Source: a virus. From it: a stretch of 40,847 bases of DNA. The first letter of the stretch is position 1, and each line of letters opens with the position of its first letter. The stretch lies in the UHGV virus genome UHGV-0390358, one strand, 5' to 3'. Below, piece by piece: positions 167 through 36,734 of the stretch. Under the pieces are notes generated by a model. That model made no database searches. It saw only the letters and a list, made by a program, of their open reading frames with translations, and had not been told where the DNA came from. The position numbers and the translations under genes were made by a program.

Positions 167-177
167 AAGGAGATATG

Positions 178-766: not shown

Positions 767-774
767 CATGTCAC

Positions 775-2905: not shown

Positions 2906-3634
2906 ATGGAAGTTTTCTGGATAGTTGTTGGTGTGGTTGCGGTGATTATTTACGTTATCAACCAGAACAAGACTAAGATCTCTGATCGTACGGTCGTTAA
3001 TCAGAACAAAACGATAAAGACCGAAGATGGGGAGGTAACGATTAGTCGTACACAGGTGATAGAACACACATCTACTCAGTTTCAAAAAACTGGAGGTAAC
3101 GCGCCTGATATTTCCGTACCTCCTGCTTATGATAGTGCGGTAATCCAGACATATTATAAACAGCAGGAGTTTGCAAAAGAGAGGCAACTGATTCAGCCAA
3201 AGCCGTTTACAGCTGAGCTTCCACCTGGAGTGTCAACGCGTCCGGCATATCATGGAAGATTCCCTGGTGATGACATATCGTCTCAGTCATCTAAAAAAGC
3301 ACCTCAGGCAGTATCAGAGCCAGCAAGAATACCTTCTGTATCGCCGCCAAAAGAAGAATCAGCTAACAGAGTTTCAAGTGGCCGCAAGCAGTGTTTGCGA
3401 TGCAGAATAAACCTTCCATATGACAAATTCCGGAAATCGTCAAAAAATCCAGATGGATTGACTAAGTGGTGTGCAAGGTGTCTCGATGGCCCAAAGAATA
3501 CACGCCATATGAAGTGGTGCCCAATTTGTAATGTCCGCAGAAAACGGACCAGCTTTTACCCTAATAATCAAAATGCGGACGGCTTAATGGCATGGTGCAA
3601 AACGTGCTGGGACGAGCACAAAGCGAAACGATAG
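2906..3634 (+). CDS. Membrane-anchored protein with two C-terminal CxxC...CxxC zinc-ribbon-like repeats, unknown function
   Basis: ATG at 2906 with GAGGA ribosome-binding site; N-terminal TM helix; repeats CLRC..DGLTKWCARC and CPIC..DGLMAWCKTC; operator palindrome 2871-2885 immediately upstream. Confidence 0.6.
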   Translation: MEVFWIVVGVVAVIIYVINQNKTKISDRTVVNQNKTIKTEDGEVTISRTQVIEHTSTQFQKTGGNAPDISVPPAYDSAVIQTYYKQQEFAKERQLIQPKPFTAELPPGVSTRPAYHGRFPGDDISSQSSKKAPQAVSEPARIPSVSPPKEESANRVSSGRKQCLRCRINLPYDKFRKSSKNPDGLTKWCARCLDGPKNTRHMKWCPICNVRRKRTSFYPNNQNADGLMAWCKTCWDEHKAKR

Positions 3635-3656
3635 GCCGCTCTTGCGGCCTTTAAAT

Positions 3657-3914
3657 TTACCGGGTTTGTTTTCGTAATTGTTCGGCACAATAGTCGAGAT
3701 GTGTTTGCAGATCCTGCATAGACATCTGTGAGCTGGTGACGTAGTTAATCAGTGCAGTCAGTTCGGCAAGTGGGCCATCGACATTAAATCCATCCTTATC
3801 GAGATCTCGGAGTAATTTCATCAAGTGCGATCCCTCCACCAGTGACCTGACGCCTCCCGGCGTGTGAATCCTTTCGGTAAATCCGTTTTCCAGTGGATAG
3901 TGATACTGCTGCAT
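3657..3914 (-). CDS. Stand-alone KilA-C-like small protein; candidate SOS-inducible antirepressor
   Basis: Paralogous to the C-terminus of the 1825..2511 protein (HTPGGVRSLVEGSHLMKLLRDL... versus HSPSGVLGLTENSLLMNLLNQL...); GGAG ribosome-binding site favours the ATG at 3914 over 3929; LexA box 6 bp upstream. Confidence 0.6.
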   Translation of the reverse strand: MQQYHYPLENGFTERIHTPGGVRSLVEGSHLMKLLRDLDKDGFNVDGPLAELTALINYVTSSQMSMQDLQTHLDYCAEQLRKQTR

Positions 3915-3934
3915 CTTAATCTTCTCCATGCAAT

Positions 3935-3954
3935 AACTGTATATTTATACAGTA
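3935..3954. promoter_or_regulatory. LexA (SOS) box
   Basis: AACTGTATATTTATACAGTA, CTGT-N8-ACAG with AT-rich spacer, 15 of 16 core positions matching the E. coli consensus; overlaps a TATAAA -10-like hexamer of the leftward promoter. Confidence 0.7.
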
Positions 3955-4110
3955 GCAAATAATTTGTTTGCTATCCAGCACGTTTTGCAAATTACCTGAA
4001 AGGTAATATCTATTCGTATTTACAGCCTTTCTATCCATATGTGGTTTTTCAGGTAATAGAATAACCAGATATGCGGCGCAACGGGTGCTGCGACTATCTG
4101 GAGATTTAAC

Positions 4111-7100: not shown

Positions 7101-7230
7101 CGTTGAAATAACGCCAGCAGGATCTAGATGGGGGGTCAGACCTGATCTCTTATTCTATATCGAGGCAGCATGGCAGCGCAGAGAAATGGATAAGATAAAA
7201 GAGCGGATTCAGTCTCTGGAAGAACGTTAA
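4111..7230 (+). CDS. Tailspike endosialidase (endo-N-acetylneuraminidase) with C-terminal intramolecular chaperone domain
   Basis: 1039 aa; conserved podovirus tailspike N-terminal head-binding region; sialidase Asp-boxes SGDDGKTW and SSDLGTSW; C-terminal HGVIAQQLRDV... autoproteolytic chaperone-type domain. Confidence 0.85.
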   Translation: MTVSTEVDHNEYTGNGVTTSFPYTFRIFRKSDLVVQVSDLNGNVTELVLDTGYTVTGAGTYSGGSVVLPSPLATGWRITIDRVLDVVQETDLRNQGKFFPEVHEDAFDYLTMLIQQCFGWFRRALMKPSLLAKYYDAKQNKISNLADPSFEQDAVNNRSMRNYVDAAIAGVVGGFGWFIQYGSGAVYRTFQDKMRDAISPKDFGAVGDGINDDSTAISACLEASSPVYKIDGLGLTFKVSTLPDVSRFKNARFLFERIPGQPLFYASEDFIQGELFKITDTPWYNAWTQDKTFVYDNVIYAPFMAGDRHGVNNLHVAWVRSGDDGKTWTTPEWLTDLHENYPTVNYHCMCMGVVRNRLFAVIETRTVSGNKLQVAELWDRPMSRSLRVYGGITKAANQQVAYIRITDHGLFAGDFVNFSNSGVTGVTGNMTVTTVIDKNTFTVTTQNTQDVDQNNEGRYWSFGTSFHSSPWRKTSLGTIPSFVDGSTPVTEIHSFATISDNSFAVGYHNGDIGPRELGILYFSDAFGSPGSFVRRRIPAEYEANASEPCVKYYDGILYLTTRGTLSTQPGSSLHRSSDLGTSWNSLRFPNNVHHSNLPFAKVGDELIIFGSERAFGEWEGGEPDNRYAGNYPRTFMTRVNVNEWSLDNVEWVNVTDQIYQGGIVNSAVGVGSVCIKDNWLYYIFGGEDFLNPWSIGDNNRKYPYVHDGHPADLYCFRVKIKQEEFVSRDFVYGATPNRTLPTFMSTSGVRTVPVPVDFTDDVAVQSLTVHAGTSGQVRAEVKLEGNYAIIAKKVPSDDVTAQRLIVSGGETTSSADGAMITLHGSGSSTPRRAVYNALEHLFENGDVKPYLDNVNALGGPGNRFSTVYLGSNPVVTSDGTLKTEPVSPDEALLDAWGDVRYIAYKWLNAVAIKGEEGARIHHGVIAQQLRDVLISHGLMEEESTTCRYAFLCYDDYPAVYDDVITGQREMPLTDNDGSIIVDEDDNPVMVMEDIIERVEITPAGSRWGVRPDLLFYIEAAWQRREMDKIKERIQSLEER

Positions 7231-7536
7231 AAAAAAGCCCGCAATATTTTGCGGGTATCAAAAACGGAGTTTGTGAAAAGTTATCTTTGAATTCTATCAT
7301 GAATCAGTACGTATTTTAAATACATGTTCAGGTTTATTACACCATAGCATTATTAAATACAAAATTAAGTCTATGGTTCCTGTACAACTGCCCCCACTCT
7401 GCTGGCTCGTTCTGTAAAATCATTAGTACTTTTATTGAGATATATGATATGGAACAATAATGATTCATATATGGTTTACTATGCGGGGTTAGTCATCAAT
7501 AATTGACTGGCTTATAGATAGTAAACAGGAGAAAGT

Positions 7537-7941
7537 ATGTCTGCTCAAGTAACAAGTGAGCAATTAAATCAGTTGCTTAGTTTTGGTTCTCTTGCTGCGG
7601 TTATTGCAGGTGTCCCTCCGGAGGTTGCTTTAGGGGCTTTGGCTGGGGCGGTAATTTTTGTTACCTCTGCAGTAGAGTACCCCATCCGTCGCCGGGTGCT
7701 CCTTTCGATGCTCAGCTTTCTTTGTGGCCTTCTCTTTTACAAACCAGCAGCATCAATTCTTATCGGCATAGCCAGCCTGATCCCTACCATCACGCAGGAC
7801 TCTTTTGAAAAAGGGATTGTTTTCTCTGCAGGCGCATTCGTGTCAGCAATTGTCGCTGTGCGTATTGGTATATGGCTCTATCACCGTTCCGATAATCCAC
7901 GCGAGTTAATTCCGGGGAGAAAAGACGATGGTAACGCATGA
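7537..7941 (+). CDS. Putative holin-like membrane protein
   Basis: AGGAG ribosome-binding site; 134 aa with several predicted TM segments; first gene of a cassette followed by endolysin and spanins. Confidence 0.45.
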   Translation: MSAQVTSEQLNQLLSFGSLAAVIAGVPPEVALGALAGAVIFVTSAVEYPIRRRVLLSMLSFLCGLLFYKPAASILIGIASLIPTITQDSFEKGIVFSAGAFVSAIVAVRIGIWLYHRSDNPRELIPGRKDDGNA

Positions 7942-8236
7942 GTTTTTTTTGCTTATCACCAATGCAGTTATTTGCACTGGCATAGCAATTCGCGTTGTCA
8001 CATTCCGGCGTAACGGCTCTCAACATCGAAGGTGGGGAGGATGGCTTGCTTATTTCCTGATTGTTGCTGCGGCCAGTATTCCTGTTCGAGTCGCCTATGC
8101 AATCTGGTTACGTACGCCAATGGCTGTGGATTTATCTGAGGTCATTATCAACGCTGTCATGCTGGCTGCGGTTATTAAAACGCGCGGTAACGTCGTTCAA
8201 ATTTTTAAAGTATCGAGGTCTAAACATGGAGATTAA
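7928..8236 (+). CDS. Putative holin/antiholin-like small membrane protein
   Basis: 102 aa hydrophobic protein; start overlaps previous gene; immediately upstream of endolysin. Confidence 0.4.
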
Positions 8237-8855
8237 ACAATTCCAGCGAGCTGCTGGTACCAGCGAGGCACTGGCCGCACGCTGGTTCTCGCATATAACT
8301 TCTGCGATGAAAGAGTTTGGTATCAGCAAAGCAGAAGATCAGGCAATGTTTATTGCTCAAGTCGGGCATGAGTCTGGGGGCTTCACCAGGTTGCAGGAGA
8401 ATTTCAACTACAGTGTCAGCGGACTGGCTAACTTCGTTCGGGCTGGGCGTCTCACTCAGGGGCAGGCTAATGCACTGGGGCGCCGTGCTGGTGAACCACC
8501 ATTGCCACTTGAGCGCCAGCGCGCGATCGCAAATCTGGTATACAGCAAACGCATGGGGAACAATGCCCCTGGTGATGGCTGGAATTACCGAGGGCGCGGA
8601 CTTATCCAGATTACCGGTTTGAATAACTATCGTGATTGCGGAAACGGTCTGAAGGTTGACCTGCTGGAGAGCCCTGAACTGCTGGCGCAGGACGAATATG
8701 CGGCTCGTAGCGCGGCGTGGTTCTTCGCCAGCAAAGGATGCATGAAGTATACCGGCGATATTGCACGTGTAACTCTGATTATCAATGGTGGCAGAAACGG
8801 TATCGACGACCGGCGTGCGCGGTACATCACAGCAAGTAAGGTACTGGCGGTATGA
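8226..8855 (+). CDS. Endolysin, glycoside hydrolase family 19 (chitinase-like) type
   Basis: ATG at 8226 (ribosome-binding site GAGG); motifs [12 protein letters not shown] and [12 protein letters not shown] typical of GH19 phage endolysins. Confidence 0.8.
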
Positions 8856-9349
8856 TCTGGGCATTTGTAAAAGCATACCGTAAACAGTTACTTATCGTGG
8901 CGATGCTTGCTGTTCTGGTCATATCAGGAGTTGTTGCCTGGAATGTGCACGGCATCCGTCAGTACGATGCCGGGTATGCGCAGGCGAAGGAAGATCAGAA
9001 ACAGGCTGATGATAAGTTAAGGTCACAGCGTGAGCAGGAGAAAACACAAATTGAACGTGAAGCACAATCCCGTATCGATGCGGCGCGTGCTGATGCTGAG
9101 TATGCTAATTCCGCTGCTGACAGCATGCGCGCCGAGCTTGACAAAACCAGGCGGCTCGCCGAACACTATACCGGATCTTTCCCCCCTGGCACGCCAGCCA
9201 GCAAGGTCATCGGTGTGCTCGCCGACATGCTTGAAGAAAGCAACCGAGTTTACAACGCAACAGCAGCTGAGGCTGAAAAGTATCGTATCGCAGGGGAATT
9301 CTGCGAGCAGCAATACGATTCACTGAAGAAGCAAAAATCGTGGCACTGA
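8852..9349 (+). CDS. Rz-like inner-membrane spanin
   Basis: N-terminal TM helix followed by charged coiled-coil region; directly after endolysin. Confidence 0.65.
9078..9326 (+). CDS. Rz1-like outer-membrane lipoprotein spanin, embedded in the +1 frame of the Rz-like gene
   Basis: Embedded ORF with lipobox LLTAC, Pro/Ser-rich; start codon choice uncertain. Confidence 0.4.
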   Translation: MRRVLMLSMLIPLLTACAPSLTKPGGSPNTIPDLSPLARQPARSSVCSPTCLKKATEFTTQQQLRLKSIVSQGNSASSNTIH

Positions 9350-9354
9350 TTTCC

Positions 9355-9616
9355 GGTGACGGTATATGAAACGGTACGGGAAAAGTTGAGGCTTGGAAAA
9401 GTGTTATCACTCAATTGGTTATGGTTGTCGTAAATAATCGAGTGGGAATGATTAACAGCTAACTCATAGCAACTCATTCCTATTCAGATACCAATTTAAC
9501 CCTCTGTTTTTACAGAGGGTTTTTGTTTTTATGTATTCATTTCTATTCACTCTACACCATATTTTTCGTCGGTACAGGTGACGGTATTACCTTAAAGGTA
9601 TACTCTCATACCGTCA
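9355..9616. repeat. Candidate attP arm region: GGTGACGGTAT repeats upstream of the integrase gene
   Basis: GGTGACGGTAT at 9355-9365 and 9577-9587 (direct), inverted copy ATACCGTCA at 9608-9616; core site not identified. Confidence 0.3.
9499..9530 (+). terminator. Rho-independent terminator downstream of lysis cassette
   Basis: ACCCTCTG-ttttta-CAGAGGGT followed by TTTTTGTTTTT. Confidence 0.6.
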
Positions 9617-9643
9617 TGAAAATGGTTTCTATACGGGTGAATT

Positions 9644-10894
9644 GTGCTTACCGATACAAAATTAAAAAACCTCAAGCCGCAGGACAAACTGTACAAGGTC
9701 TCCGATCGTGACGGGCTGTATGTAGCTGTGCTTACGTCAGGCACGGTCTCGTTTCGCTATGACTACCGTATCAACGGTCGCCGCGAAACACTGGTAATCG
9801 GGCAGTATGGGCGTGACGGTATCAGCCTGGCAGAAGCGCGAGAAGAACTGATTGCTGCAAAGAAGCTGCTTAAAGCAGGCCAGTCACCGGCTGCGGCTAA
9901 ACGTGACGGTATCAAAAAGATTCGTGGTGCCGAGACGTTTGCGGTACATACCGACAGTTATATGAAACACGTCATCCTGGCTGACAGTACCCGCGCAATG
10001 AAACAGGCGGTGATCGACCGTGACATACTTCCGGTTCTTGGCAATAAAATGATGGCTGAAATTACCACATCGATGGTTCGTGATTTGTGTGACCGGATTG
10101 TCGAACGCGGTGGCCGGGCAACAGCAGTACAGGCCAGGGAGATCATCAGCAGCGTATACCGTCACGCCAATGACCGTGGTCATGGTTTGTTTAATCCTGC
10201 GGCTGACATTAAACCTTCGTCTATCGCCATATTTAAACCACGAGAGCGAACACTGACACCAGAAGAAATTGGCCTGTTCTTCCGCACGCTGGATGCCATT
10301 GGTGCTATGGGCACTATGAAAATGGCTTTAAAGCTGGTGCTTATCACTATGGTTCGTAAAGGCGAATTCACCAATGCAACGTGGGATGAAATAGATTTTA
10401 AAAAATGGACATGGACAATTCCTTCAGACCGCATGAAGGGAAGCCGGGCGCACGTTATTTACCTGCCTAAACAGGCACAGGATATATTGGTTGGGTTGCA
10501 GATGTGCGCTGGTGGAAGTGAATATCTGGTTCCTGGTCGTTACAATTTCCGGAAGCCATTATCTAATGCCGCGCTGAACTCTCTGATCGACAGAACGGTG
10601 AAAATAATAAATGAAGATGGTGAGCATATTCAGGACTTCACCGTACACGATATGCGCCGTACAGCCAGTACGTTGTTGCATGAGGCTGGTTATCCTTCAG
10701 ACTGGATTGAAAAGGCTCTGGCACATGAGCAGAAAGGTGTGCGCGCCGTATATAACAAAGCGGAATACGCCAGACAGCGCGCCTACATGTTGCAGCAGTG
10801 GGCCGATATGATTGATTCCTGGATTAACGGGGAGCATACGGATCTGATTCCGTTCTCCCCGTCGAAGTTTGAGAAGTGGATGGCGGGGGAATAA
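9644..10894 (+). CDS. int: Tyrosine site-specific integrase
   Basis: GTG start at 9644; N-terminal LTDTKLKNLKP...YRINGRRETLVIG arm-binding-type domain; C-terminal catalytic region HDMRRTASTLL...AVYNKAEY. Confidence 0.85.
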   Translation: MLTDTKLKNLKPQDKLYKVSDRDGLYVAVLTSGTVSFRYDYRINGRRETLVIGQYGRDGISLAEAREELIAAKKLLKAGQSPAAAKRDGIKKIRGAETFAVHTDSYMKHVILADSTRAMKQAVIDRDILPVLGNKMMAEITTSMVRDLCDRIVERGGRATAVQAREIISSVYRHANDRGHGLFNPAADIKPSSIAIFKPRERTLTPEEIGLFFRTLDAIGAMGTMKMALKLVLITMVRKGEFTNATWDEIDFKKWTWTIPSDRMKGSRAHVIYLPKQAQDILVGLQMCAGGSEYLVPGRYNFRKPLSNAALNSLIDRTVKIINEDGEHIQDFTVHDMRRTASTLLHEAGYPSDWIEKALAHEQKGVRAVYNKAEYARQRAYMLQQWADMIDSWINGEHTDLIPFSPSKFEKWMAGE

Positions 10895-14974: not shown

Positions 14975-15559
14975 TTATTGTTTGCTTTTTTCGTTCTGGT
15001 TGATGACAAATTCAATGTAACTTTCGATCTTTGCTTTCTCGGTTTCGGGTAACAATGCGTAGCGTGAGCGGTCATAGTTGATAGTCGCAGGGTCGTGCGG
15101 GTGAATCAGTAGTTCATATCCGTGACGCCCGAATGCGGATGCAACATTCTCCAGGGTGGAAATGGAAACGCTGACCTCATTGTTTAACAGGCGGCTGATT
15201 GTCACCTGGGCGACGCCGGATGCGCGGTGAAGTTTTCCCTGTGTTGAAAGGTCGCGGCTTTCGCTCATCCAGCGTTCCAGGTTGTGAGCCGCCAGCTGAC
15301 CTATATCGCTCGGGCCGACAGGCTGAAAACCCTCCTGAGAAAGCGAACGATCAATATCAAGCCAGTTACGGGGTTTATTGGCGGCAGCTTCAATTTTTCG
15401 TGCAACCTGGTCGCCGATAACCTTCTTGCCAAGAGCCCAGCGGTTTACCAGATTTGCCTGAGTTCCAAGTTTTTCTGCCATCCGCGTCTGAACACCATTG
15501 AATTCACGGTCGATCAAGTCGTTGAGATTTTGCCTGCGGACGTCCTGGATACTTTTCAT
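14975..15559 (-). CDS. Prophage repressor with two tandem XRE-type HTH domains and no peptidase S24 autocleavage domain
   Basis: 194 aa; HTH-like segments QTRMAEKLGTQANLVNRWALGK and VAQVTISRLLNNEVSVSISTLENVASAFG; divergent from Cro-like gene across an operator-containing region. Confidence 0.7.
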   Translation of the reverse strand: MKSIQDVRRQNLNDLIDREFNGVQTRMAEKLGTQANLVNRWALGKKVIGDQVARKIEAAANKPRNWLDIDRSLSQEGFQPVGPSDIGQLAAHNLERWMSESRDLSTQGKLHRASGVAQVTISRLLNNEVSVSISTLENVASAFGRHGYELLIHPHDPATINYDRSRYALLPETEKAKIESYIEFVINQNEKSKQ

Positions 15560-21275: not shown

Positions 21276-21323
21276 CATGTCACGAGTAGATTATGCATGA
21301 TGAATTTGATGGTTTTGAATACT

Positions 21324-21349
21324 GCCGCCAACTATGGCGGCTTTATTTT
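21324..21349 (+). terminator. Rho-independent terminator between early-right genes and terminase operon
   Basis: GCCGCC-aactat-GGCGGC followed by TTTATTTT. Confidence 0.5.
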
Positions 21350-21392
21350 GCATGGTACTATTACCACAACGGTAACTATTACCACGGTGGTT

Positions 21393-21989
21393 ATGATGCC
21401 TGCTGAACCTAAAACCTATAAACGCAAATCAACGCAATTTAAGCCACTAACAGCAATGCAGGAGGCTTATTGCCAGTCATACATCAAAACGCCTGAAAAC
21501 CAGACTCAGGCAGCGATTAATGCAGGATTCTCCCCAAATACAGCGGCAGTTAAAGCCAGTGTCATGATGCGCGATGAACGCATTCAAAAACGGATTGCCG
21601 AGTTGATGGAGGAGCGCAACAAACGAATGCGCGTCAGTGCTGATTACGTTCTCATGCGCCTGGTGGAGATCGACCAGATGGACGTGATCGACATCCTCAA
21701 CGACGATGGGAGCCTTAAACCAATCCGTGAGTGGCCGAAAATCTGGCGCACTACGCTTAGTGGCTTTGATCTGTCATCGATCATCATGAACATGAACGAG
21801 GATTCGATAGAGACAATCCTCAAAAAAATTAAATGGCCTGACAAGGTGAAGAACCTTGAGCTGATTGGTAAGCATGTTGATGTCAACGCGTTCAAAGAAC
21901 GTCTGGATGTTAATGTGAATGTGACAATTGCTGATCGCATAGCAGCAGCCAGGAAGCGACTCAAAGAACGTCAGGATGGTAATCAGTGA
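21393..21989 (+). CDS. Terminase small subunit
   Basis: HTH-like ...QAAINAGFSPNTAAVKASVMMRDERIQKRIAEL; immediately upstream of and overlapping TerL; start taken at internal ATG 21393. Confidence 0.6.
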   Translation: MMPAEPKTYKRKSTQFKPLTAMQEAYCQSYIKTPENQTQAAINAGFSPNTAAVKASVMMRDERIQKRIAELMEERNKRMRVSADYVLMRLVEIDQMDVIDILNDDGSLKPIREWPKIWRTTLSGFDLSSIIMNMNEDSIETILKKIKWPDKVKNLELIGKHVDVNAFKERLDVNVNVTIADRIAAARKRLKERQDGNQ

Positions 21990-23455
21990 CAGATACATCG
22001 TTATCTCCTGAAGAGCAGTTGATCGAGGATATTGCAGGGTTCACTCACGATCCGCTTGGCTATGCCCTCTATGCGTTCCCGTGGGGGGAAGAGGGGACTG
22101 AACTGGCACATGCCACCGGCCCACGTCAATGGCAGGCTGATGCGTTCCGAGAGATACGTGATCACCTGCAGAATCCAGAGACGCGCTATCAGCCGCTTAT
22201 GCTGGCACGCGCTTCTGGTCACGGTATTGGTAAATCCGCATTTATCTCAATGCTGATCAACTGGGGCATGTCCACTTGCGAGGATTGTAAGGTCGTGGTG
22301 ACCGCCAACACCGACAACCAGCTACGAACGAAGACCTGGCCGGAAATTATCAAGTGGTCGAACCTTGCTATCACGAAAGACTGGTTTACCTGTACCGCTA
22401 CCGCGATGTACAGCAATGACCCTGGGCACGACAAGCGGTGGCGAGCTGACGCAATCCCTTGGTCTGAGCACAACACTGAGGCATTCGCCGGACTACACAA
22501 CGAGCGCAAACGCATCATCGTGGTATTCGATGAAGCGTCGAACATTGCGGATCTGGTGTGGGAAGTTGCCGAGGGTGCGCTAACGGACGAAGACACTGAG
22601 ATTATCTGGGTGGCGTTCGGAAACCCGACGCGTAATACCGGACGTTTCCGCGAATGTTTCCGCAAATATAAACACCGCTGGAAAACTGCGCAGATTGACA
22701 GCCGGACGGTGGAAGGCACCAACAAACAGCAGTTGCAGAAATGGGTTGATGACTACGGGGAAGACAGCGACTTCGTTAAAATCCGTGTGCGTGGAATATT
22801 CCCTGATGCATCTGAATTGCAGTTTATCCCTACCGGTCTTACTGACGAGGCAATGAAACGGGTGGTAACCGCTGCGCAGGTTGCACATGCTCCGGTGATA
22901 ATTGGCGTTGACCCGGCATACTCCGGCGTTGATGACGCTGTGATATACCTGCGGCAGGGGCTACACAGTAAGGTGCTGTGGACTGGCAACAAGACCACTG
23001 ACGATCTGATAATGGCGAAGCGTATCGCTGACTTTGAAGACCAGTACCAGGCTGACGCAGTGTTCATCGACTTCGGTTACGGAACTGGTCTGAAGTCAAT
23101 CGGTGACGGCTGGGGTCGTACATGGCAACTTGTTCCGTTTGGTGGCGCGTCTACTGACCCGCAGATGCTCAACAAGCGTGGGGAGATGTTCAACTCATGC
23201 AAGACATGGCTGAGGCTGGGCGGCATGCTTGATGACCAGGAAACAGCGGACGACCTGTCGGCGGCAGAGTACAAAGTTCGAGTGGACGGTAAAATCGTTA
23301 TCGAACCGAAGGAAGATATCAAGGAGCGGCTTGGGCGTTCTCCTGGTAAAGGCGATGCGCTACTGCTGACGTTTGCGTTCCCGGTAGCCAAGAAAACTAA
23401 TGACCCACGGCAGCAGCAGGGCAGGGCTATAACAGACTATGACCCATTTGAATGA
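21986..23455 (+). CDS. Terminase large subunit
   Basis: GTG start overlapping TerS stop; Walker A-like ARASGHGIGKSAF and Walker B-like IIVVFDEAS; 489 aa. Confidence 0.85.
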   Translation: MTDTSLSPEEQLIEDIAGFTHDPLGYALYAFPWGEEGTELAHATGPRQWQADAFREIRDHLQNPETRYQPLMLARASGHGIGKSAFISMLINWGMSTCEDCKVVVTANTDNQLRTKTWPEIIKWSNLAITKDWFTCTATAMYSNDPGHDKRWRADAIPWSEHNTEAFAGLHNERKRIIVVFDEASNIADLVWEVAEGALTDEDTEIIWVAFGNPTRNTGRFRECFRKYKHRWKTAQIDSRTVEGTNKQQLQKWVDDYGEDSDFVKIRVRGIFPDASELQFIPTGLTDEAMKRVVTAAQVAHAPVIIGVDPAYSGVDDAVIYLRQGLHSKVLWTGNKTTDDLIMAKRIADFEDQYQADAVFIDFGYGTGLKSIGDGWGRTWQLVPFGGASTDPQMLNKRGEMFNSCKTWLRLGGMLDDQETADDLSAAEYKVRVDGKIVIEPKEDIKERLGRSPGKGDALLLTFAFPVAKKTNDPRQQQGRAITDYDPFE

Positions 23456-23458
23456 TTT

Positions 23459-24283
23459 TTACTTTTGTGTTTTTGATTTTCTTTGATAGGTGGAATTTAA
23501 ATCACCATTTATATTTACTAGAGGATTATTCAATAATGTACTGATTTCTGGATTGTTAATTCCAGTAACGCCAAGTTTCTTTACGGACTCATTAAAGTCT
23601 TGTAATGATTTTAGACCTACAAGCCCATTAGCAATTGTATTATTTGTTGCCAAAGGAATGTTTTTCTTATAGGACTCATATTCGTTTTTTAAATTTTTGT
23701 GAGTTTTTTCTAGATTTTCTAGTTTAGATGTTGTTTCATCAATAACCTTAGATAATTCTAAAATACGAGCTTGTGCTGCGCGCAGTTCTGTCTCCCTCTC
23801 TTTCAATTCAGATGTGAGTTGTCCCATTCTGTCTTTTGAAAGAATTATTTCCTCTTTCATGTCTTGAATGTTTTTTTCAGCGCCTGTTTTTACTTTTTCG
23901 TAAGTAATGTCTTTTTTAGCCAGCAATCTCTGTAGCCGTGTTTCACGTTGTATTTTTCTTGCCTTCCGGTGGTTTTCGATTGAGTCATTATTATCAAGAG
24001 GTTTTGCTTGCCATACGTTAATGATATTGTTTACCCATGGTAATAGGCAGCAGATAGTAATTACAGATAAGCATGGATAAAACATAACAGTTTTCCATGT
24101 GCTGTTATCTGAGATGTATGAAATTTTATCTATTATATTTGATTTGCTAAAAAACAGATAAAGAAGTGATTTCCAGTTGAAGGCGCACCAGGACATAACA
24201 AAAGCACCAAGCACAGGGTTTTTAGCTCGATGCACGGCAGTATTGGCAGTAGATAAAAACAGCTCTTTGAACGATTCGAACAT
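23459..24283 (-). CDS. AT-rich accessory protein: N-terminal membrane segments + long coiled-coil; unknown function
   Basis: Opposite strand to flanking late genes; AT-rich composition unlike neighbours; consensus TATAAT -10 at 24309-24314 overlapping an operator palindrome; in-frame alternative starts at 24307 and 24337. Confidence 0.5.
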   Translation of the reverse strand: MFESFKELFLSTANTAVHRAKNPVLGAFVMSWCAFNWKSLLYLFFSKSNIIDKISYISDNSTWKTVMFYPCLSVITICCLLPWVNNIINVWQAKPLDNNDSIENHRKARKIQRETRLQRLLAKKDITYEKVKTGAEKNIQDMKEEIILSKDRMGQLTSELKERETELRAAQARILELSKVIDETTSKLENLEKTHKNLKNEYESYKKNIPLATNNTIANGLVGLKSLQDFNESVKKLGVTGINNPEISTLLNNPLVNINGDLNSTYQRKSKTQK

Positions 24284-24342
24284 ACTAATTACCTTAAAGT
24301 TTTTCATGATTATACCTTTAAGGTAATTTGTGGTCATCAGGC

Positions 24343-24367
24343 AAAAAAAATGCCCGGCGAACCGGGC
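24343..24367 (-). terminator. Rho-independent terminator downstream of the tRNA
   Basis: Minus strand GCCCGG-ttcg-CCGGGC followed by a run of 8 T. Confidence 0.45.
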
Positions 24368-24530
24368 GAACTGGAAGCAATGAGTTATGCCTTCCGTGGC
24401 TGTACGGGTTTACAGCATGAAGTCATCGCAATGGCGTCCTGCTGTAAAAAGGGCGGTGATAGGCCTTCAAGGGAAACCATCACCGCCAAGCCCCTGGAAC
24501 TTCTGGCATCACGGTCCTCAGGCGTGATTC

Positions 24531-24607
24531 TGGCGTGGCATGCAGGATTCGAACCTGCGACCAACCGCTTAGAAGGCGGTTGCTCTGTCCAACTGAGCTA
24601 ATGCCAC
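24531..24607 (-). tRNA. tRNA-Arg (anticodon UCU)
   Basis: Reverse complement folds as a 77-nt cloverleaf: 7-bp acceptor stem GTGGCAT/ATGCCAC, D-arm GCTC..GAGC, anticodon loop CTTCTAA, T-arm GCAGG-TTCGAAT-CCTGC, 3' CCA; differs from E. coli argU in the acceptor stem. Confidence 0.9.
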
Positions 24608-25034
24608 AACGCTGAGAGCACTTAGCCTGTTAAGGCGCCACACTTTGTCTCGGCTCCATAAATGCTCTCATCGTTGTACCCTCGTCTCTTCCGAGGCGTC
24701 ACACCGAATCGCCGGGATGGTGAATCCCCGTGCGCGGAATAAAACCGCTCGACTTGCACATTCCGGCTACCTGGTTCGTTTGCCCGAGCAAGGGAGGGTG
24801 CCCCTTAAACGTATCCAGACCGCTATCGGCGCATGTGCCATACGCCGTACTGCTCAAAATAAAAGCTCACTCCACCTGTTCAATTTAACGACAAGCCAGT
24901 CAGGTTAGTAACCGGAATGAACTCTTTGGTTACCTGAAAGGTAATAATTTGTGCGTTAAATGTCAACTATCTACGATAAATAAATCATATGTGGTTAAAT
25001 TGGTAATAATTTAATTGCGTACGGAGTCATTGAT

Positions 25035-25241
25035 ATGTGCATGGGTAGCTCACCATCAGTGCCTGCAACACCAGAAGTTCAGGCAGCACCACAGGAGCAG
25101 GATGCCGCCGTTGTTGATGCCCGCGACGAAGAAACACGTCGCCGTCGCGCTGCTGCTGGTCGTAGTTCTACGCTGCTTACCGGTTCTCAGGGCGACACAT
25201 CAACCGCTAATACCAGCGGTAAAACGCTGCTTGGTCAGTAA
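25035..25241 (+). CDS. Small low-complexity virion protein (T7 gp7.3-like composition)
   Basis: GGAG ribosome-binding site; 68 aa, Ala/Arg/Ser/Thr-rich; immediately upstream of portal. Confidence 0.45.
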   Translation: MCMGSSPSVPATPEVQAAPQEQDAAVVDARDEETRRRRAAAGRSSTLLTGSQGDTSTANTSGKTLLGQ

Positions 25242-25255: not shown

Positions 25256-26935
25256 ATGGCGGAAACAACTAAAGAGCGATTGAACAAACAGTTCGCACAA
25301 CTTGAAAGCGAGCGTCAGTCGTTCGAGCCGCACTGGCGCGAGTTGAGTGATTACATCAACCCGCGTGGTTCCCGCTTTCTGACTTCTGAGGTTAACCGTA
25401 ACGATCGACGCAATACACGCATTATTGATTCGACCGGGACTATGGCGGCGCGCACTCTTGCCAGCGGCATGATGTCAGGCATAACAAGCCCCGCCCGTCC
25501 GTGGTTTCGCCTGGCTACGCCAGATCCTGAAATGATGGATTATGGCCCTGTTAAGTTGTGGCTTGAGGCGGTGCAGAACCGCATGAACGATATGTTCAAT
25601 AAGTCGAATCTCTATCAGTCGCTGCCGCAGTTATACGGAAGCCTCGGCACATACAGCACTGGTGCAATGGCAGTGCTGGAGGATGACGAGGACATCATTC
25701 GCACAATGCCATTCCCGATAGGCAGTTACTACCTGGCTAACTCACCTCGTGGCAGTGTGGACACCTGTTTTCGCAAGTTCTCTATGACTGTTCGTCAGCT
25801 TGTTCAGGAGTTCGGGCTAAATAACGTCAGCGAATCCGTAAAAAGCATGTGGGAAAGCGGCACCTACGAGAAGTGGATTGAAGTGATGCATTCGGTTTAC
25901 CCGAACATTGACCGCGATACATCGAAGCTGGATAGCAAGAACAAGCCATTCAAATCGGTTTATTACGAGGTTGGTGGCGATAACGACAAGTTGTTGCGTG
26001 AGTCCGGATTCGATGAGTTTCCAATTATGGCTCCGCGCTGGGAAGTTAACGGCGAAGATGTTTATGGATCATCATGCCCGGGTATGCTGGCGCTTGGACC
26101 TGTTAAGGCATTGCAGCTTCTCCAGAAGCGCAAGTCGCAGTTGATTGATAAAGCCACCAATCCGCCGATGGTTGCTCCGACTTCCCTCAAGAATCAGCGT
26201 GCCTCCCTTCTTCCTGGCGACATCACGTATATCGATCAGATTACTGGTCAGGATGGTTTCAGGCCTGCTTATCTGGTTAACCCCAGTACAGCAGATTTGG
26301 TGGCAGACATTCAGGACACTCGTCAAATCATTAACAGCGCCTACTTTGTCGATCTGTTCATGATGTTGCAGAACATCAATACCCGCTCGATGCCTGTTGA
26401 AGCGGTGATCGAAATGAAAGAAGAAAAACTTCTGATGTTGGGGCCGGTTCTGGAGCGTCTGAACGACGAATGTCTTAATCCTCTCATTGACCGCTCTTTC
26501 TCGATGATGGTGCGTAAAAACATGCTGCCGCCACCGCCAGACGTGATGGAAGGTATGCCCCTGAAGGTCGAATACATTTCCGTCATGGCTCAGGCGCAGA
26601 AGTCTATCGGCCTGTCCAGTCTGGCGTCCACGGTTAACTTCATTGGTCAACTTGCGCAAGCGAAACCAGAAGCTCTCGACAAACTCAACGTTGATCAGGC
26701 GATCGATGCATTCGCTGATATGTCCGGAGTGTCTCCAACCGTCATTGTTCCGCAGGAACAGGTTGAGCAGGCTCGCCAGCAACGGGCACAGCAACAACAG
26801 CAGCAACAAATGATGGCGATGGGGATGGCGGCGGCACAGGGTGCCAAGACGCTAAGCGAAGCTAAAACTTCGGATCCGAGTGTTTTGTCAGCTATGGCGA
26901 ATGCAGTTAGTGGTCAGGGTGGGCAATCACAATGA
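25256..26935 (+). CDS. Portal (head-to-tail connector) protein, T7 gp8-like
   Basis: 559 aa; position after terminase; Gln/Met/Ala-rich C-terminus QQQQQQMMAMGMAAAQG as in T7-type portals. Confidence 0.8.
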   Translation: MAETTKERLNKQFAQLESERQSFEPHWRELSDYINPRGSRFLTSEVNRNDRRNTRIIDSTGTMAARTLASGMMSGITSPARPWFRLATPDPEMMDYGPVKLWLEAVQNRMNDMFNKSNLYQSLPQLYGSLGTYSTGAMAVLEDDEDIIRTMPFPIGSYYLANSPRGSVDTCFRKFSMTVRQLVQEFGLNNVSESVKSMWESGTYEKWIEVMHSVYPNIDRDTSKLDSKNKPFKSVYYEVGGDNDKLLRESGFDEFPIMAPRWEVNGEDVYGSSCPGMLALGPVKALQLLQKRKSQLIDKATNPPMVAPTSLKNQRASLLPGDITYIDQITGQDGFRPAYLVNPSTADLVADIQDTRQIINSAYFVDLFMMLQNINTRSMPVEAVIEMKEEKLLMLGPVLERLNDECLNPLIDRSFSMMVRKNMLPPPPDVMEGMPLKVEYISVMAQAQKSIGLSSLASTVNFIGQLAQAKPEALDKLNVDQAIDAFADMSGVSPTVIVPQEQVEQARQQRAQQQQQQQMMAMGMAAAQGAKTLSEAKTSDPSVLSAMANAVSGQGGQSQ

Positions 26936-34221: not shown

Positions 34222-36734
34222 TGCCAGTCGTACCAACAGTATCCGGCCGTCAGGTTCAGAGCCGTGGAGTTCAGTCAGCAGGCTTGCAGACGTTTTCTCA
34301 GCCAGGTATTGGTGATGCTTTTGTTCGGGCAGGGACAGAGGCAATTGATGTTTTTGGTCAGGCAAAACAGCGTGCCAATATCGCTCTGGCTCAGGAGGCA
34401 TCTCTTAACCTCAGTCAGATAAGCAGTGATCTGCTGAATAATCCTGAAACAGGATTGCTTAACCTGAAAGGGAAAAATGCTATTGGAAAAGGTCAGGAGT
34501 ATACGCAGCAGTTTGATGCTCAGGTCGAACAACTGGCTATGTCGCTGCCGGATGAACAGGCTCGTAATGCTTTCATGCAGCAGGCGCAGCAGCAGCGCAT
34601 TCAGTTCACTACGCAGGCAGGGCGGCACGAGATAGGGCAAATAAATGCCTACGAAGAAGGCCAGTTTCAGGCTACGCTGCTGAACAATGGTAAAAATGCC
34701 GCAGCATTGTATGGCGACAACGCCGCATACGTATTGGCTAATAAGCAAACTTTCCAGCAAATTGAGGATTACGGCATTGCACATGGCTGGAGTGACGAGC
34801 AAATCCAGGCCAAGAAAATCGAGTTTAAAGAGAAGGTTGCTGATGCTGCATTGTCCCAGTGGTCGGCAAACAATGCGACCGCATTCATCCAAAGTAATGG
34901 CGAGTTAAGTGATACTGCTGCTGGAGCTCGCCGTGCTGTAGCAGATAGTGACTCTTCCGAGCGTGCCCGTGGCATACGCAACAATAACCCAGGAAATCTC
35001 GAATACAGCAAAACTAATCCGTGGGTAGGCCAGACCGGTGATGATGGTCGATTTGCTAAATTCGAAACACCTGAACACGGGATTCGTGCATTAGGGCGGA
35101 ACCTGATGTCGTATCAGAGGCAGGGTATTGATACCGTCAGCGAGATAATTAATCGCTGGGCACCGCCTACTGATAAAAATGACACTATGTCGTATATCAA
35201 AGCAGTGTGCGAACAACTTGGCGTTTCTGCTGATGAGCCTCTCGATGCATCTAATCCTGATACCCTGAAGGCGCTTTGTGCAGCCATTATCCATCATGAG
35301 AACGGTAGCCAGCCATACAGTGATCAGCAGTTAACTGCTGGTGTCAGTGCAGCACTTGGTTTATCAACAATTCCAACCAACACCAAACGCTATACCGGTA
35401 ATGCAGCATTCGATGCGGCATCTCCTGAGGCGCAGGCAAGTTTTATGCGACAGGCGGATCAACTGCGTCGGCAGCAGCAGGCTGAATATAAAACGATGAT
35501 TGACAGCAAGGTTCGCGATGCGACAGCTGCGTATATGCGGGGCGTTGAATTTCCTAACCCACCTGGTGAGGCTGATTTTATTGCAGCTTATGGAGTCAGA
35601 GAAGGAAACCTGCGATATACCGAGTTCAGAAATACGCAAATCGCCGGACAGTATATAGGCTCTTTCCGCAACATGCCGACAAGCAGCATTACAGCATATG
35701 TTGAGCAATTACGCCCGGATACTGGTGAGACAGGGGAGGGTTATGCGGCACGAGCCGCTCTTTATGACAACGTTGTGTCGGCTGCAAGTCAGGTGATAAA
35801 GCAGCGACAGGCTGATCCTGTACAGTTCTCTCTTGCCGCCGGACAGGCAAAGCCTATCGACATGAGCAATAAGGATAACTTTGGACAGAGCGTTGCCTTG
35901 CGTGCTGCTCAGGTCAGTGACCTTGCTAAGTCATATGGCACTCCACTGACGTTCTTTTCCAAAGACGAGGCCAATCAGATCGGTGTTTTCTTTCGTGATG
36001 CTCCAGTTTCCCAACAGGCAGCATATCTCGATACCATCAGGCAGAGCACTGGTGGTGGGCAGGTGTATATGTCAGCACTACAGCAGATCAGTGCCAACGC
36101 TCCATCTGCTGCCGTTGCCGGGATACTGATGGACAAGCCTGGTGGTATTTTGGCAGAAAAAAACTGGTTTAATCCGGATGTTTCCGTGTCTCCTGAAACC
36201 GCTGCGCAGACAATTCTTACTGGCGCGGCGGCTCGTAAAGGTACTGATGATGCGAAAGGTATTCCGATGCCTAAAGATGCTGATCTTCGCCTTGAGTTTT
36301 CTGACATGGTGAAGGATGCATTTGCTGGTGATGCTCAGGGGGCATCAATGGCATACGAGATCGCAAAGGACTATTACGCTGGTGTGATGGCGAAAAAAGG
36401 CGTGATATCAGGCGAAATTGACACTGATATCTGGAAGCAGGCTGTTAACGTAGCTACAGGTGGCGTGCATGACTATAACGGAATGGGGAATGTCCTTTTG
36501 CCGTGGGGAATGTCTGCAGAGCAATTCGATAAGCAGGTTAATCAGGCTTGGAATGAACAAGTGGTCGGCACCGGGATAAAAACACCGCCTGGTCAGTATG
36601 GTTTGCAAAGTTACGGCGATAGTCAGTACCTGGTGAAACTTGGTACTGGTTATCTGCTGAAAGATGATGGTTCTCCTGTTGTTCTTGATCTGACACAGAA
36701 GCGTCAGAGATTCTCCGGAGATATTCCGCAATGA
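34221..36734 (+). CDS. Large internal (ejected) virion protein with conserved central domain; possible virion-associated peptidoglycan hydrolase
   Basis: ATG at 34221 with GGAGGA ribosome-binding site, overlapping previous stop; conserved-looking block RGIRNNNPGNLEYSKTNPWVGQ... that I cannot assign by eye. Confidence 0.5.
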   Translation: MPVVPTVSGRQVQSRGVQSAGLQTFSQPGIGDAFVRAGTEAIDVFGQAKQRANIALAQEASLNLSQISSDLLNNPETGLLNLKGKNAIGKGQEYTQQFDAQVEQLAMSLPDEQARNAFMQQAQQQRIQFTTQAGRHEIGQINAYEEGQFQATLLNNGKNAAALYGDNAAYVLANKQTFQQIEDYGIAHGWSDEQIQAKKIEFKEKVADAALSQWSANNATAFIQSNGELSDTAAGARRAVADSDSSERARGIRNNNPGNLEYSKTNPWVGQTGDDGRFAKFETPEHGIRALGRNLMSYQRQGIDTVSEIINRWAPPTDKNDTMSYIKAVCEQLGVSADEPLDASNPDTLKALCAAIIHHENGSQPYSDQQLTAGVSAALGLSTIPTNTKRYTGNAAFDAASPEAQASFMRQADQLRRQQQAEYKTMIDSKVRDATAAYMRGVEFPNPPGEADFIAAYGVREGNLRYTEFRNTQIAGQYIGSFRNMPTSSITAYVEQLRPDTGETGEGYAARAALYDNVVSAASQVIKQRQADPVQFSLAAGQAKPIDMSNKDNFGQSVALRAAQVSDLAKSYGTPLTFFSKDEANQIGVFFRDAPVSQQAAYLDTIRQSTGGGQVYMSALQQISANAPSAAVAGILMDKPGGILAEKNWFNPDVSVSPETAAQTILTGAAARKGTDDAKGIPMPKDADLRLEFSDMVKDAFAGDAQGASMAYEIAKDYYAGVMAKKGVISGEIDTDIWKQAVNVATGGVHDYNGMGNVLLPWGMSAEQFDKQVNQAWNEQVVGTGIKTPPGQYGLQSYGDSQYLVKLGTGYLLKDDGSPVVLDLTQKRQRFSGDIPQ

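What the first reader, a model, noticed from the sequence alone, without database searches (positions are those of the whole stretch)
23459..24607. Antisense AT-rich membrane/coiled-coil gene plus tRNA island inserted between TerL and the portal operon
Between two co-directional late genes sits a minus-strand unit: tRNA-Arg(UCU), a terminator, then a promoter with a perfect TATAAT whose spacer and -10 are overlapped by an operator copy, driving a markedly AT-rich gene for a protein with two N-terminal TM segments and a roughly 180-residue coiled coil. Composition and orientation mark it as a horizontally acquired insertion; the architecture suggests a membrane-acting exclusion, abortive-infection or host-takeover factor.
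Basis: partly seen in the sequence, partly recalled or inferred. Interest (0 to 1): 0.55.

Follow-up and report, generated by a model that had tools for sequence, protein, structure and literature searches.

The report
Repressor-wired membrane coiled-coil phage accessory gene
A temperate E. coli phage carries, in a swap-prone slot between its DNA-packaging and portal genes, a backwards-facing AT-rich gene for an uncharacterised membrane-anchored coiled-coil protein whose promoter contains the phage's own repressor binding site; it is probably a weapon in phage–phage or phage–host conflict, but its function is untested.

Summary
The window is an epsilon15-like (Uetakevirus) temperate phage with a K1 endosialidase tailspike.

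**The gene.** It runs 23459..24283(-) and encodes 274 aa, not 292. It has a conserved N-terminal membrane module and one continuous helix, residues 63-208. That leaves about 115 aa of cytoplasmic stalk, not about 180. The C-terminus is hypervariable.

**What is inserted.** Only 23456..24342 is variable. The tRNA-Arg(UCU) unit is conserved in relatives. Related phages fill this slot with at least six alternative minus-strand cassettes. The commonest is an Acb4-family anti-CBASS sponge (PF13876).

**Regulation.** Its promoter spacer holds the palindrome TTACC-N5-GGTAA, which occurs 16 times in the window against 0.67 expected and marks the cI/cro region. This arrangement recurs in 65 of 70 related loci. 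The gene therefore looks wired into the phage repressor regulon.

**The family.** It is large (2,522 representative clusters) and has no Pfam, NCBIfam, PADLOC, PDB or fold match. I found it only in temperate phages, prophages and small phage-like elements. One member sits in the P2 old/tin defence hotspot.

**Verdict.** It is most likely a conflict protein acting at the inner membrane. Whether it serves exclusion, abortive infection or counter-defence is unresolved.

The parts
23456..24342 (.). Variable accessory-gene slot, running from the TerL stop codon to the T-run of the post-tRNA hairpin
   Evidence: Homology with phiV10, TL-2011b and others breaks at these two points. In 82 related loci the slot is 316-1477 bp long and holds at least six alternative minus-strand cassettes or nothing.
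23459..24283 (-). CDS for the 274-aa membrane plus coiled-coil protein (phrog_4780 family). The stop codon lies 3 nt from the TerL stop on the other strand.
   Evidence: ORF. The start was fixed by homologue alignment and by phrog_4780, E 2e-121. AlphaFold2 gave pLDDT 81.9. GC is 0.338.
24292..24295 (-). Shine-Dalgarno-like AAGG, 8 nt upstream of the ATG at 24283
   Evidence: Read directly from the sequence.
24309..24337 (-). Sigma-70-type promoter ATGACC-17-TATAAT
   Evidence: 10 of 12 matches. The same -35 / 17-nt spacer / -10 layout is present in four divergent allele lineages.
24312..24326 (.). Operator palindrome TTACCTTAAAGGTAT (one mismatch to TTACC-N5-GGTAA), filling the promoter spacer and overlapping the -10
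   Evidence: A palindrome lies at -43 to -45 from the ATG in 65 of 70 related loci.
24343..24367 (-). Intrinsic terminator T2 (GCCCGG-TTCG-CCGGGC plus eight T); it is the left boundary of the variable slot
   Evidence: It is conserved in all cassette types.
24446..24487 (-). Terminator-like hairpin T1 directly 3' of the tRNA (an 11-bp stem followed by CTTTTT)
24531..24607 (-). tRNA-Arg(UCU), a conserved resident of the phage lineage
   Evidence: ARAGORN; Rfam RF00005, 73.3 bits. Present at 97-100% identity in 75 of 82 related loci examined (78 of all 85 loci).
24608..24925 (-). About 320 nt of GC-rich sequence between the putative promoter and the tRNA (probable leader)
   Evidence: Conserved at 74-82% in Klebsiella and Salmonella relatives. 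Fold z-score is -2.3. No Rfam family matched.
24930..24966 (-). Putative promoter of the tRNA unit: TTGACA at 24966..24961, then 17 nt, then TACCTT, with a perfect operator TTACCTTTCAGGTAA at 24944..24930
   Evidence: The equivalent site is conserved in phiV10 and in IMG/VR relatives. Which strand's promoter it controls is inferred, not shown.
21986..23455 (+). Large terminase gene (flank, convergent with the cassette)
25256..26935 (+). Portal gene (flank), preceded by the small conserved ORF at 25035..25241
   Evidence: PF12236.

Best explanation
The gene is a facultative conflict cassette of an epsilon15-like temperate phage.

**The protein.** It is an inner-membrane protein, predicted N-in/C-in. 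It has:
- a strongly conserved N-terminal module: an amphipathic helix plus a helical hairpin carrying an invariant SW...NW motif;
- a long helix continuing from TM2, which probably oligomerises as a cytoplasmic coiled-coil stalk;
- a hypervariable distal coil and tail.

**Proposed mechanism.** The conserved membrane module is the working or anchoring part. The variable tip is the specificity determinant that binds a changing partner, either a rival phage protein or a host immune protein. Binding either perturbs the membrane (exclusion or abortive-infection type) or sequesters the partner there.

**Proposed regulation.** The phage's immunity operator fills the promoter spacer. The gene should therefore be shut or throttled by the repressor in the lysogen and fired on infection or induction.

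**Shown versus inferred.**
- Shown: the anatomy, the slot variability, the operator statistics and their conservation, the pattern of conservation along the protein, and the genomic contexts.
- Inferred: which protein binds the operator, the expression timing, the topology, the oligomeric state and the conflict function.
For: **Slot and context**
- The slot is a swap hotspot with at least six cassettes.
- The commonest alternative cassette is PF13876, the Acb4 anti-CBASS sponge family. Acb4 and this gene sit side by side in some loci.
- A distant family member (P0185) lies between gpA and portal gpQ of a P2-like prophage. That is the old/tin defence hotspot defined in PMC9122126.
- Other members are antisense morons in a Klebsiella prophage and in a lambdoid prophage.

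**Pattern along the protein**
- Between allele lineages the N-terminal 160 aa are 42-67% identical and the C-terminus only 26-34%.
- Among near-identical alleles the N-terminus shows 1-4 synonymous and 0-1 nonsynonymous changes. The C-terminus shows 0-1 synonymous and 6-7 nonsynonymous changes (hand-calculated Fisher p about 0.015 for one pair).
- C-termini differ in length and some carry extra domains.
- Polar residues conserved in at least 90% of 81 diverse members lie inside TM1. This argues that the membrane module is more than an anchor.
- The family-wide charge distribution favours an N-in/C-in topology.

**Regulation**
- The operator is enriched 16 against 0.67 expected and marks the cI/cro intergenic region, the leftward early promoter, the antirepressor gene, int and the terS upstream region.
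- The same regulon is present in phiV10.
- The operator-in-spacer layout is conserved in 65 of 70 loci.

**Distribution**
- The family is confined to temperate or integrated elements. Only six of 50,697 phage records hold a relative, none of them a classical virulent phage.
Against: - No homology to any validated defence or counter-defence protein. PADLOC gave only coiled-coil noise, and Pfam, NCBIfam, PDB and fold searches were empty.
- Predicted repression by the immunity repressor does not fit the classical model of a defence gene expressed from the prophage.
- The slot-mate Acb4 is a counter-defence gene, not a defence gene.
- C-terminal variability could reflect relaxed constraint on a spacer-like coiled coil rather than an arms race. 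The substitution counts are small and the pairs compared are not independent.
- TM1 is only marginally hydrophobic, so the topology, and with it the compartment of the coiled coil, is not settled.
- The family's presence at this same slot in very distant epsilon15-type phages could point to a role in the phage's own biology.
Confidence: 0.45

Rival explanations
1. Counter-defence factor. This would be an early lytic protein that neutralises a membrane-associated host immune effector, such as the transmembrane effectors of CBASS or Pycsar, RexAB-, Kiwa-, Zorya- or Tmn-type systems. The variable cytoplasmic tip would bind the target at the membrane.
For: - It shares the slot, and sometimes the locus, with the Acb4 anti-CBASS sponge family.
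- Operator control predicts expression at the onset of lytic growth, which is when counter-defence is needed.
- The variable C-terminus fits an arms race with host proteins.
Against: - The family is nearly absent from sequenced virulent phages, where counter-defence genes abound.
- One member sits in the P2 gpA-gpQ hotspot. According to PMC13586616, anti-defence genes are rare in P2-like prophages.
- No similarity to any known anti-defence protein.
Confidence: 0.22
2. Host-takeover or cell-physiology factor for the phage's own lytic cycle. Possible roles are inhibition of cell division, a membrane tether for replication or packaging, or control of lysis timing.
For: - Predicted early, repressor-controlled expression.
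- Long-standing residence next to TerL in very distant epsilon15-type phages.
- The membrane-anchored cytoplasmic coiled-coil build recalls EzrA-like division regulators and phi29 p16.7 (recalled from my own knowledge, not tested here).
Against: - It is dispensable: absent from most close relatives and replaced by unrelated genes.
- The hypervariable C-terminus argues against a conserved host target.
- The lysis cassette with holin and Rz-like genes lies elsewhere, at 7537..9349.
Confidence: 0.12
3. Classical lysogenic-conversion moron, expressed constitutively from the prophage. It would act as a superinfection-exclusion protein of the SieA, SieB or HK97 gp15 type, or as a host fitness or virulence factor.
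For: - Antisense orientation with its own strong promoter, foreign composition and patchy distribution.
- The layout matches lambda sieB, which is also antisense with its stop codon abutting that of N.
- In the window the operator carries one mismatch and has no cooperative partner site, so repression may be leaky.
- In a heteroimmune Klebsiella prophage the operator is an orphan, so the gene may be constitutive there.
Against: - The operator fills the spacer and overlaps the -10 in nearly all alleles, which predicts repression in the lysogen.
- There is no sequence relationship to SieB (hhalign probability 1.2%).
- AT-rich DNA is also a likely H-NS target in enterobacteria (my own knowledge).
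Confidence: 0.15
4. Not a functional gene: a chance ORF or a decaying remnant.
For: The family is annotated only as 'hypothetical' everywhere. Two of the 70 loci carry truncated copies, L128 and L166.
Against: - Strong purifying selection on the N-terminal 160 aa.
- 2,522 representative clusters at E<=1e-3.
- A confident structure prediction.
- Conserved promoter, operator and ribosome-binding site.
Confidence: 0.02

Closest known systems
Lambda / P22 SieB (superinfection exclusion protein B, PF14163)
   Same: - It is an antisense gene embedded in an operon, with its stop codon abutting the stop of the convergent neighbour: lambda sieB 34482..35036(+) against N 35037..35438(-).
- Here the cassette stop is at 23459 and the TerL stop at 23455.
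- Both proteins have N-terminal membrane segments and a cytoplasmic C-terminal part.
- Both are accessory genes of temperate phages.
   Different: - There is no detectable homology (hhalign probability 1.2%; no PF14163 hit).
- SieB has a globular C-terminal domain, not a long coiled coil.
- SieB acts from the prophage, whereas this gene carries the immunity operator in its promoter.
Accessory genes of prophage diversity hotspots, e.g. old and tin between gpA and gpQ of P2 (Rousset et al. 2022, PMC9122126)
   Same: - It is a sharply bounded slot next to packaging and portal genes that holds many alternative cassettes.
- One distant family member occupies the P2 hotspot itself.
   Different: - This slot lies in a podovirus, faces backwards inside the late operon and is tied to a tRNA gene.
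- It mixes a counter-defence gene (Acb4 family) with genes of unknown function.
- None of its cassettes has been tested.
Acb4 anti-CBASS sponge family (PF13876; bioRxiv 10.1101/2024.12.30.630793)
   Same: - It occupies the same slot, on the same strand, downstream of the same tRNA in relatives (36 of 82 loci).
- It is sometimes adjacent to this gene.
   Different: - It is an unrelated small soluble protein.
- The Acb4-type cassettes have no promoter of their own and start directly after hairpin T2. This gene brings its own operator-bearing promoter.
Membrane effectors of abortive-infection systems (RexB; 2-TM effectors of CBASS and Pycsar) and class II holins or pinholins
   Same: Both have a small helical-hairpin membrane module that could depolarise the membrane on oligomerisation. 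The weakly hydrophobic TM1 next to a stronger TM2 recalls the pinholin S21 (my own knowledge).
   Different: - This would be a single-gene unit with no separate sensor or signal-generating enzyme.
- It has a 115-residue coiled-coil stalk.
- It is not in the lysis cassette.
- No sequence or fold match was found.

Membership tests
phrog_4780 (PHROGs family of unknown function) | Significant full-length match to the family profile | tested here: met
   E 2e-121, residues 19-292 of the long ORF against profile positions 1-269 of 275. The weaker related families are phrog_13369 and phrog_35327.
Moron (independent accessory transcription unit in a phage operon, in the sense of Hendrix and colleagues) | Own promoter upstream of the gene | tested here: met
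   ATGACC-17-TATAAT at 24337..24309(-). The layout is conserved in divergent alleles. This is sequence-level evidence only.
Moron | Own terminator downstream of the gene | tested here: inconclusive
   The stop codon lies 3 nt from the TerL stop. Only a weak hairpin lies inside TerL, at 23420..23404(-). phiV10 has an annotated terminator at the equivalent place, but this window does not.
Moron | Nucleotide composition unlike the neighbours | tested here: met
   GC 0.338 and GC3 0.298, against 0.51-0.54 and 0.58-0.59 for the neighbours. Family members are AT-rich in every context: gene 0.29-0.39 against flanks 0.42-0.57.
Moron | Present in some close relatives and absent in others | tested here: met
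   Present in 20 of 82 related loci. This allele is in 18 of 530 E. coli genomes carrying the region. The N-terminal module is detectable in 62 of 5,426 genomes.
Immunity-repressor (cI/cro-type) regulon of the phage | Operator sequence placed so as to occlude the promoter | tested here: met
   The operator at 24312..24326 fills the spacer and overlaps the -10. 65 of 70 related loci have the same layout.
Immunity-repressor regulon of the phage | Repressor binding, and repression in the lysogen | not testable with these tools
   This needs gel shifts with the product of 14975..15559(-), or reporter or transcript data. The assignment of the motif to cI/cro rests on its position between those two genes.
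SieB (PF14163) | Sequence or profile homology to SieB | tested here: not met
   hhalign probability 1.2%. No Pfam hit at E<=1.
i-spanin (Rz-like) | Single N-terminal TM segment, periplasmic coiled coil, partner o-spanin, location in the lysis cassette | tested here: not met
   The protein has two hydrophobic segments. The charge distribution favours a cytoplasmic C-terminus. The phage's Rz-like gene (DUF2514) is at 8852..9349, next to the holin. No lipoprotein partner gene was seen beside this gene.
Known anti-phage defence systems (PADLOC-DB v2.0) | Significant match to a defence-protein model outside low-complexity or coiled-coil regions | tested here: not met
   The only matches were to coiled-coil parts of LmuB, JetC, DruC and PD-Lambda-1, at E 1e-4 to 0.1.
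'2TM + 1TM + TIR' system of P2-like phage AC1 (PMC9122126) | Homology of its 2-TM protein to this family | tested here: not met
   The start of the cloned AC1 sequence encodes MGKQGKGKGKGNKNQ..., which lacks the family's N-terminal motifs. This was a comparison by eye only.

The most novel reading that the evidence does not exclude
The family would be a new class of single-protein, membrane-anchored sensor-effector that is armed by loss of prophage repression.

- It would be held off by the immunity repressor in the lysogen.
- It would be produced at induction or infection.
- It would use a swappable coiled-coil tip to recognise rival phages that are co-induced or co-infecting, or host immune proteins.
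- The conserved hairpin module would then act on the inner membrane.

That would make it an exclusion device serving the lytic phage rather than the lysogen, distributed across thousands of protein clusters.
Probability: 0.2. Interest if true: 0.7.

Novelty: new variant of a known kind. Interest (0 to 1): 0.45.

Why it matters
**If the reading is right**
- A family with about 2,500 representative clusters and no annotation would gain a role in phage–phage or phage–host conflict.
- The TerL-to-tRNA slot of epsilon15-like phages would join the P2/P4 hotspots as a place to mine for defence and counter-defence genes. Five of its six cassette families have unknown function, and the sixth is the Acb4 sponge family.
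- An accessory gene wired into the immunity regulon would be an unusual design. It raises a directly testable question: do temperate phages arm conflict genes only when they leave lysogeny?

**Practical points**
- The finding corrects public annotation in two ways: the start codon of this gene, and a spurious CDS lying antisense to the tRNA in several phage records.
- It defines a 15-bp operator regulon for this phage genus.

Tried and rejected
**Searches on the protein that found nothing informative**
- Pfam, NCBIfam and PADLOC scans of the protein and of ten distant relatives gave only coiled-coil noise.
- A profile search against PDB sequences found nothing.
- Foldseek against BFVD and PDB had no match with E<=0.001.
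- The afdb50 fold library was not available.

**Specific candidates tested and rejected**
- SieB homology was tested by hhalign and rejected.
- The 2-TM protein of the validated AC1 '2TM+1TM+TIR' system looked promising because of a shared weak UPF0242 hit. Its sequence is unrelated.
- i-spanin and holin readings were rejected on topology, size and location.

**Searches that were uninformative**
- Motif searches for the family in the supplements of PMC9122126 found nothing, but those files were truncated when stored, so this is inconclusive.
- A scan of genome contigs with the N-terminal alignment returned no confirmed relative because the patterns were too strict.
- The diverse alignment A3 was too variable to seed a scan.
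- Rfam found nothing in the region beyond the tRNA.
- Literature searches found no paper on this gene, on the operator, or on the slot.
Full report
**What the window is.**
- The region matches epsilon15-like podophages of the genus Uetakevirus (phiV10, TL-2011b, vB_EcoP_ZX5 and others) at 98-99% in its flanks.
- It is 100% identical to a prophage of E. coli Es_ST80_L1_NDM_10_2017 over the stretch compared.
- The window is permuted relative to that integrated prophage. In the chromosome the integrase gene abuts guaA, whereas in the window it is preceded by tailspike and lysis genes.
- The tailspike (4111..7230) is a K1 endosialidase.

**Check of the observation.**
- tRNA-Arg(tct) at 24531..24607(-);
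- a GC hairpin plus eight T at 24367..24343(-);
- a promoter ATGACC-17-TATAAT at 24337..24309(-);
- a palindrome at 24312..24326 that fills the spacer and overlaps the -10;
- an AT-rich ORF ending 3 nt from the TerL stop.

Composition is far from the neighbours. The gene has GC 0.338 and GC3 0.298, against 0.54/0.59 for TerL and 0.51/0.58 for the portal gene. It uses AGA at 14.5 per 1000 codons, against 0 in TerL, portal and the major capsid gene.

Five corrections are needed:
1. The CDS starts at 24283 and encodes 274 aa. All homologues start at that methionine, and phrog_4780 aligns from residue 19 of the long ORF.
2. The helix runs over residues 63-208. That is TM2 plus about 115 residues, not about 180, and it is followed by a disordered tail.
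3. TM1 is only marginally hydrophobic.
4. A second terminator-like hairpin follows the tRNA directly.
5. The tRNA is not part of the insertion (below).

**The slot.** I fetched 80 IMG/VR loci through the TerL C-terminus and added four phage records and four prophage loci.
- The tRNA is present in 75 of the 82 loci that could be examined across the slot. It is in 78 of all 85 loci fetched; three of those end before the slot.
- The DNA between the TerL stop and the T-run of hairpin T2 varies from 316 to 1477 bp.
- All real genes in the slot lie on the minus strand.

| Cassette | Loci (of 82) |
|---|---|
| PF13876 family | 36 |
| This membrane coiled-coil family | 20 |
| 140-aa family | 14 |
| 115-aa family (TL-2011b type) | 6 |
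| 113-aa family | 5 |
| 99-aa family | 2 |
| No recognised cassette | 3 |

- Four loci carry two cassettes and are counted under both families.
- The sample is biased towards TerL sequences close to the window's.
- In complete E. coli genomes, 530 of 5,426 carry the region and 18 carry this allele. The N-terminal module is detectable at DNA level in 62 genomes.
- PF13876 is the Acb4 family of cyclic-nucleotide sponges that defeat CBASS. The other cassette families have no known function.
- The Acb4-type, 140-aa and 113-aa cassettes begin with a ribosome-binding site directly after hairpin T2 and have no promoter of their own. The membrane coiled-coil cassette always brings a promoter.

**The operator.**
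- TTACC-N5-GGTAA (up to 1 mismatch) occurs 16 times in the window against 0.67 expected.
- The sites lie:
  - between the cI-like HTH gene (14975..15559, minus strand) and the cro-like gene (two sites);
  - at the leftward early promoter (two sites, 62 bp apart);
  - before the BRO-N antirepressor gene, the tailspike gene and int;
  - after cro;
  - before the DUF1064 gene (two sites, 62 bp apart);
  - just upstream of terS;
  - in the promoter of this gene;
  - at 24930..24944, upstream of the tRNA.
- phiV10 has 14 sites at equivalent places.
- The palindrome's location at the immunity region makes the cI/cro pair the likely binders. This is an inference.
- In four divergent allele lineages of the gene the layout is the same: a -35-like xTGACy, 5 nt, the 15-bp palindrome, and a -10 that starts inside the palindrome.
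- Among 70 further IMG/VR loci holding the family, 63 have the gene convergent with an epsilon15-type TerL at a distance of 3-28 bp. 65 have the palindrome at -43 to -45 from the ATG.
- Other operators sit at conserved places in the same loci.
- A heteroimmune Klebsiella prophage carries the cassette with its operator as the only such motif in 12.7 kb. The cassette therefore moves together with its promoter.

**The protein.**
- The alignment shows a strongly conserved N-terminal 160 residues, followed by a region that is unalignable in sequence and variable in length. Some members have extra C-terminal domains.
- Across 81 diverse members, R19, P23, F28, S31, W32, N36, W37, S46, P70 and P82 are at least 90% conserved. 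Polar and aromatic residues inside TM1 are therefore under selection.
- Mean net charges are +0.8 for the N-terminus, -0.9 for the loop and +3.0 for the 35 residues after TM2. This favours an N-in/C-in topology with a cytoplasmic stalk.
- Between slot lineages the N-terminus is 42-67% identical and the C-terminus 26-34%.
- Among near-identical alleles, changes in the N-terminus are synonymous (1-4 against 0-1 nonsynonymous). Changes in the C-terminus are nonsynonymous (6-7 against 0-1 synonymous). The counts are small.
- A profile of the N-terminal module finds 2,522 representative clusters at E<=1e-3 and 386 at E<=1e-10.
- No curated family, solved structure or fold match was found.

**Contexts elsewhere.**
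- A second lineage of the family (starting MLDF...) was found in 55 IMG/VR loci.
  - 28 are again next to an epsilon15-type TerL, with TerL identity down to 32%.
  - One is in a P2-like gpA-gpQ locus.
  - 26 are in other places.
  - All are AT-rich relative to their flanks.
- P0185 lies between gpA and gpQ of a P2-like prophage. This is the old/tin defence hotspot.
- Other members are:
  - antisense between the replication and nin-type genes of a lambdoid prophage;
  - antisense in a Klebsiella prophage;
  - among exonuclease and methylase genes of another phage;
  - next to a ParA-like gene;
  - once in a non-phage context beside a Fic gene.
- Only six of 50,697 phage records hold a relative, none of them a classical virulent phage.

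**Interpretation.**
- The gene is real, under selection and accessory. It sits in a hotspot that hosts conflict genes.
- The split between a conserved membrane module and a diversifying tip, the restriction to temperate and integrated elements, and the P2 hotspot member all favour an exclusion or abortive-type role.
- The Acb4 slot-mate and the operator favour an early lytic, phage-serving role, which could be counter-defence.
- I therefore commit to 'conflict protein acting at the inner membrane, gated by the phage repressor' at 0.45. Counter-defence (0.22), a constitutive exclusion moron (0.15) and host takeover (0.12) are the rivals.
- The long residence of the family at this same slot in distant phages, together with the adapted promoter, shows it is not a naive recent import, although alleles are clearly exchanged.

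**Comparison with what is known.**
- Lambda sieB has a strikingly similar layout: antisense, abutting stop codons, and an N-terminal membrane segment. It is not homologous.
- The slot behaves like the P2/P4 hotspots.
- No paper in the searchable library describes the gene, the slot or the operator.

Noticed in passing
window, 16 sites: 1744, 2778, 2871, 3992, 9587, 14841, 14903, 15615, 15663, 16000, 17908, 17970, 21361, 21379, 24312, 24930: A 15-bp palindrome TTACC-N5-GGTAA marks nearly every intergenic promoter region of the phage: the immunity region, antirepressor, tailspike, int, the terS upstream region and the tRNA unit. Two pairs of sites are spaced exactly 62 bp apart. It looks like a genome-wide repressor regulon. 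It is conserved in phiV10 (14 sites), and I found no paper describing it.
   Followed up: partly
window 4111..7230 (+): The tailspike is a K1-capsule endosialidase (PF12217, E 6e-233, plus the End_tail_spike and Peptidase_S74 chaperone domains) in an epsilon15-like genome. It has lower GC (0.447) and, like the finding's gene, is rich in AGA codons (15.4 per 1000). The phage tRNA-Arg(UCU) may serve these AT-rich acquired genes.
   Followed up: partly
window 24350..24601 (+): An 83-aa plus-strand ORF is annotated as a hypothetical protein in phiV10 (p04), TL-2011b and EC.W1-9. It lies antisense over the tRNA gene and both terminator hairpins, so it is almost certainly a spurious CDS. Some records also omit the tRNA or place it on the wrong strand (phiv142-3).
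   Followed up: partly
window 24446..24487 (-) and 24608..24925 (-): A second strong terminator-like hairpin follows the tRNA directly. About 320 nt of conserved, GC-rich and moderately structured sequence (z = -2.3) separate the tRNA from its putative promoter. No Rfam family matches this stretch. How promoter-less cassettes in relatives, such as Acb4, are transcribed past two hairpins is unexplained.
   Followed up: partly
L001 1753..2124 (-) (phiV10p03) and 36 of 82 related loci: The 'Sf6 gene 66-like' hypothetical protein of phiV10 and many E. coli prophages belongs to PF13876. Recent preprints identify that family as the Acb4 anti-CBASS sponge family. These prophages therefore carry a likely counter-defence gene co-located with a tRNA.
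   Followed up: partly
window 1..9600 versus NZ_CP031215.1 (L005): The window is circularly permuted relative to the integrated prophage, which sits next to guaA. It reads like an excised or assembled phage genome with the attP/int junction near 9587..9644. An operator copy lies just upstream of int.
   Followed up: no
L098 1..513 and 516..1355: In the P2-like prophage that carries the distant family member, a NACHT/STAND NTPase gene sits next to the CI repressor gene. It is probably a second defence locus of that prophage.
   Followed up: no
window 21276..21393: Two tandem operator-like sites (TTACCACAACGGTAA and TTACCACGGTGGTTA) lie after a terminator and immediately before an ATGATG at 21391-21396. 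The RefSeq start of terS (21315) and the longest-ORF start (21297) would place them inside the coding sequence. The true terS start may be downstream of both annotated starts.
   Followed up: no
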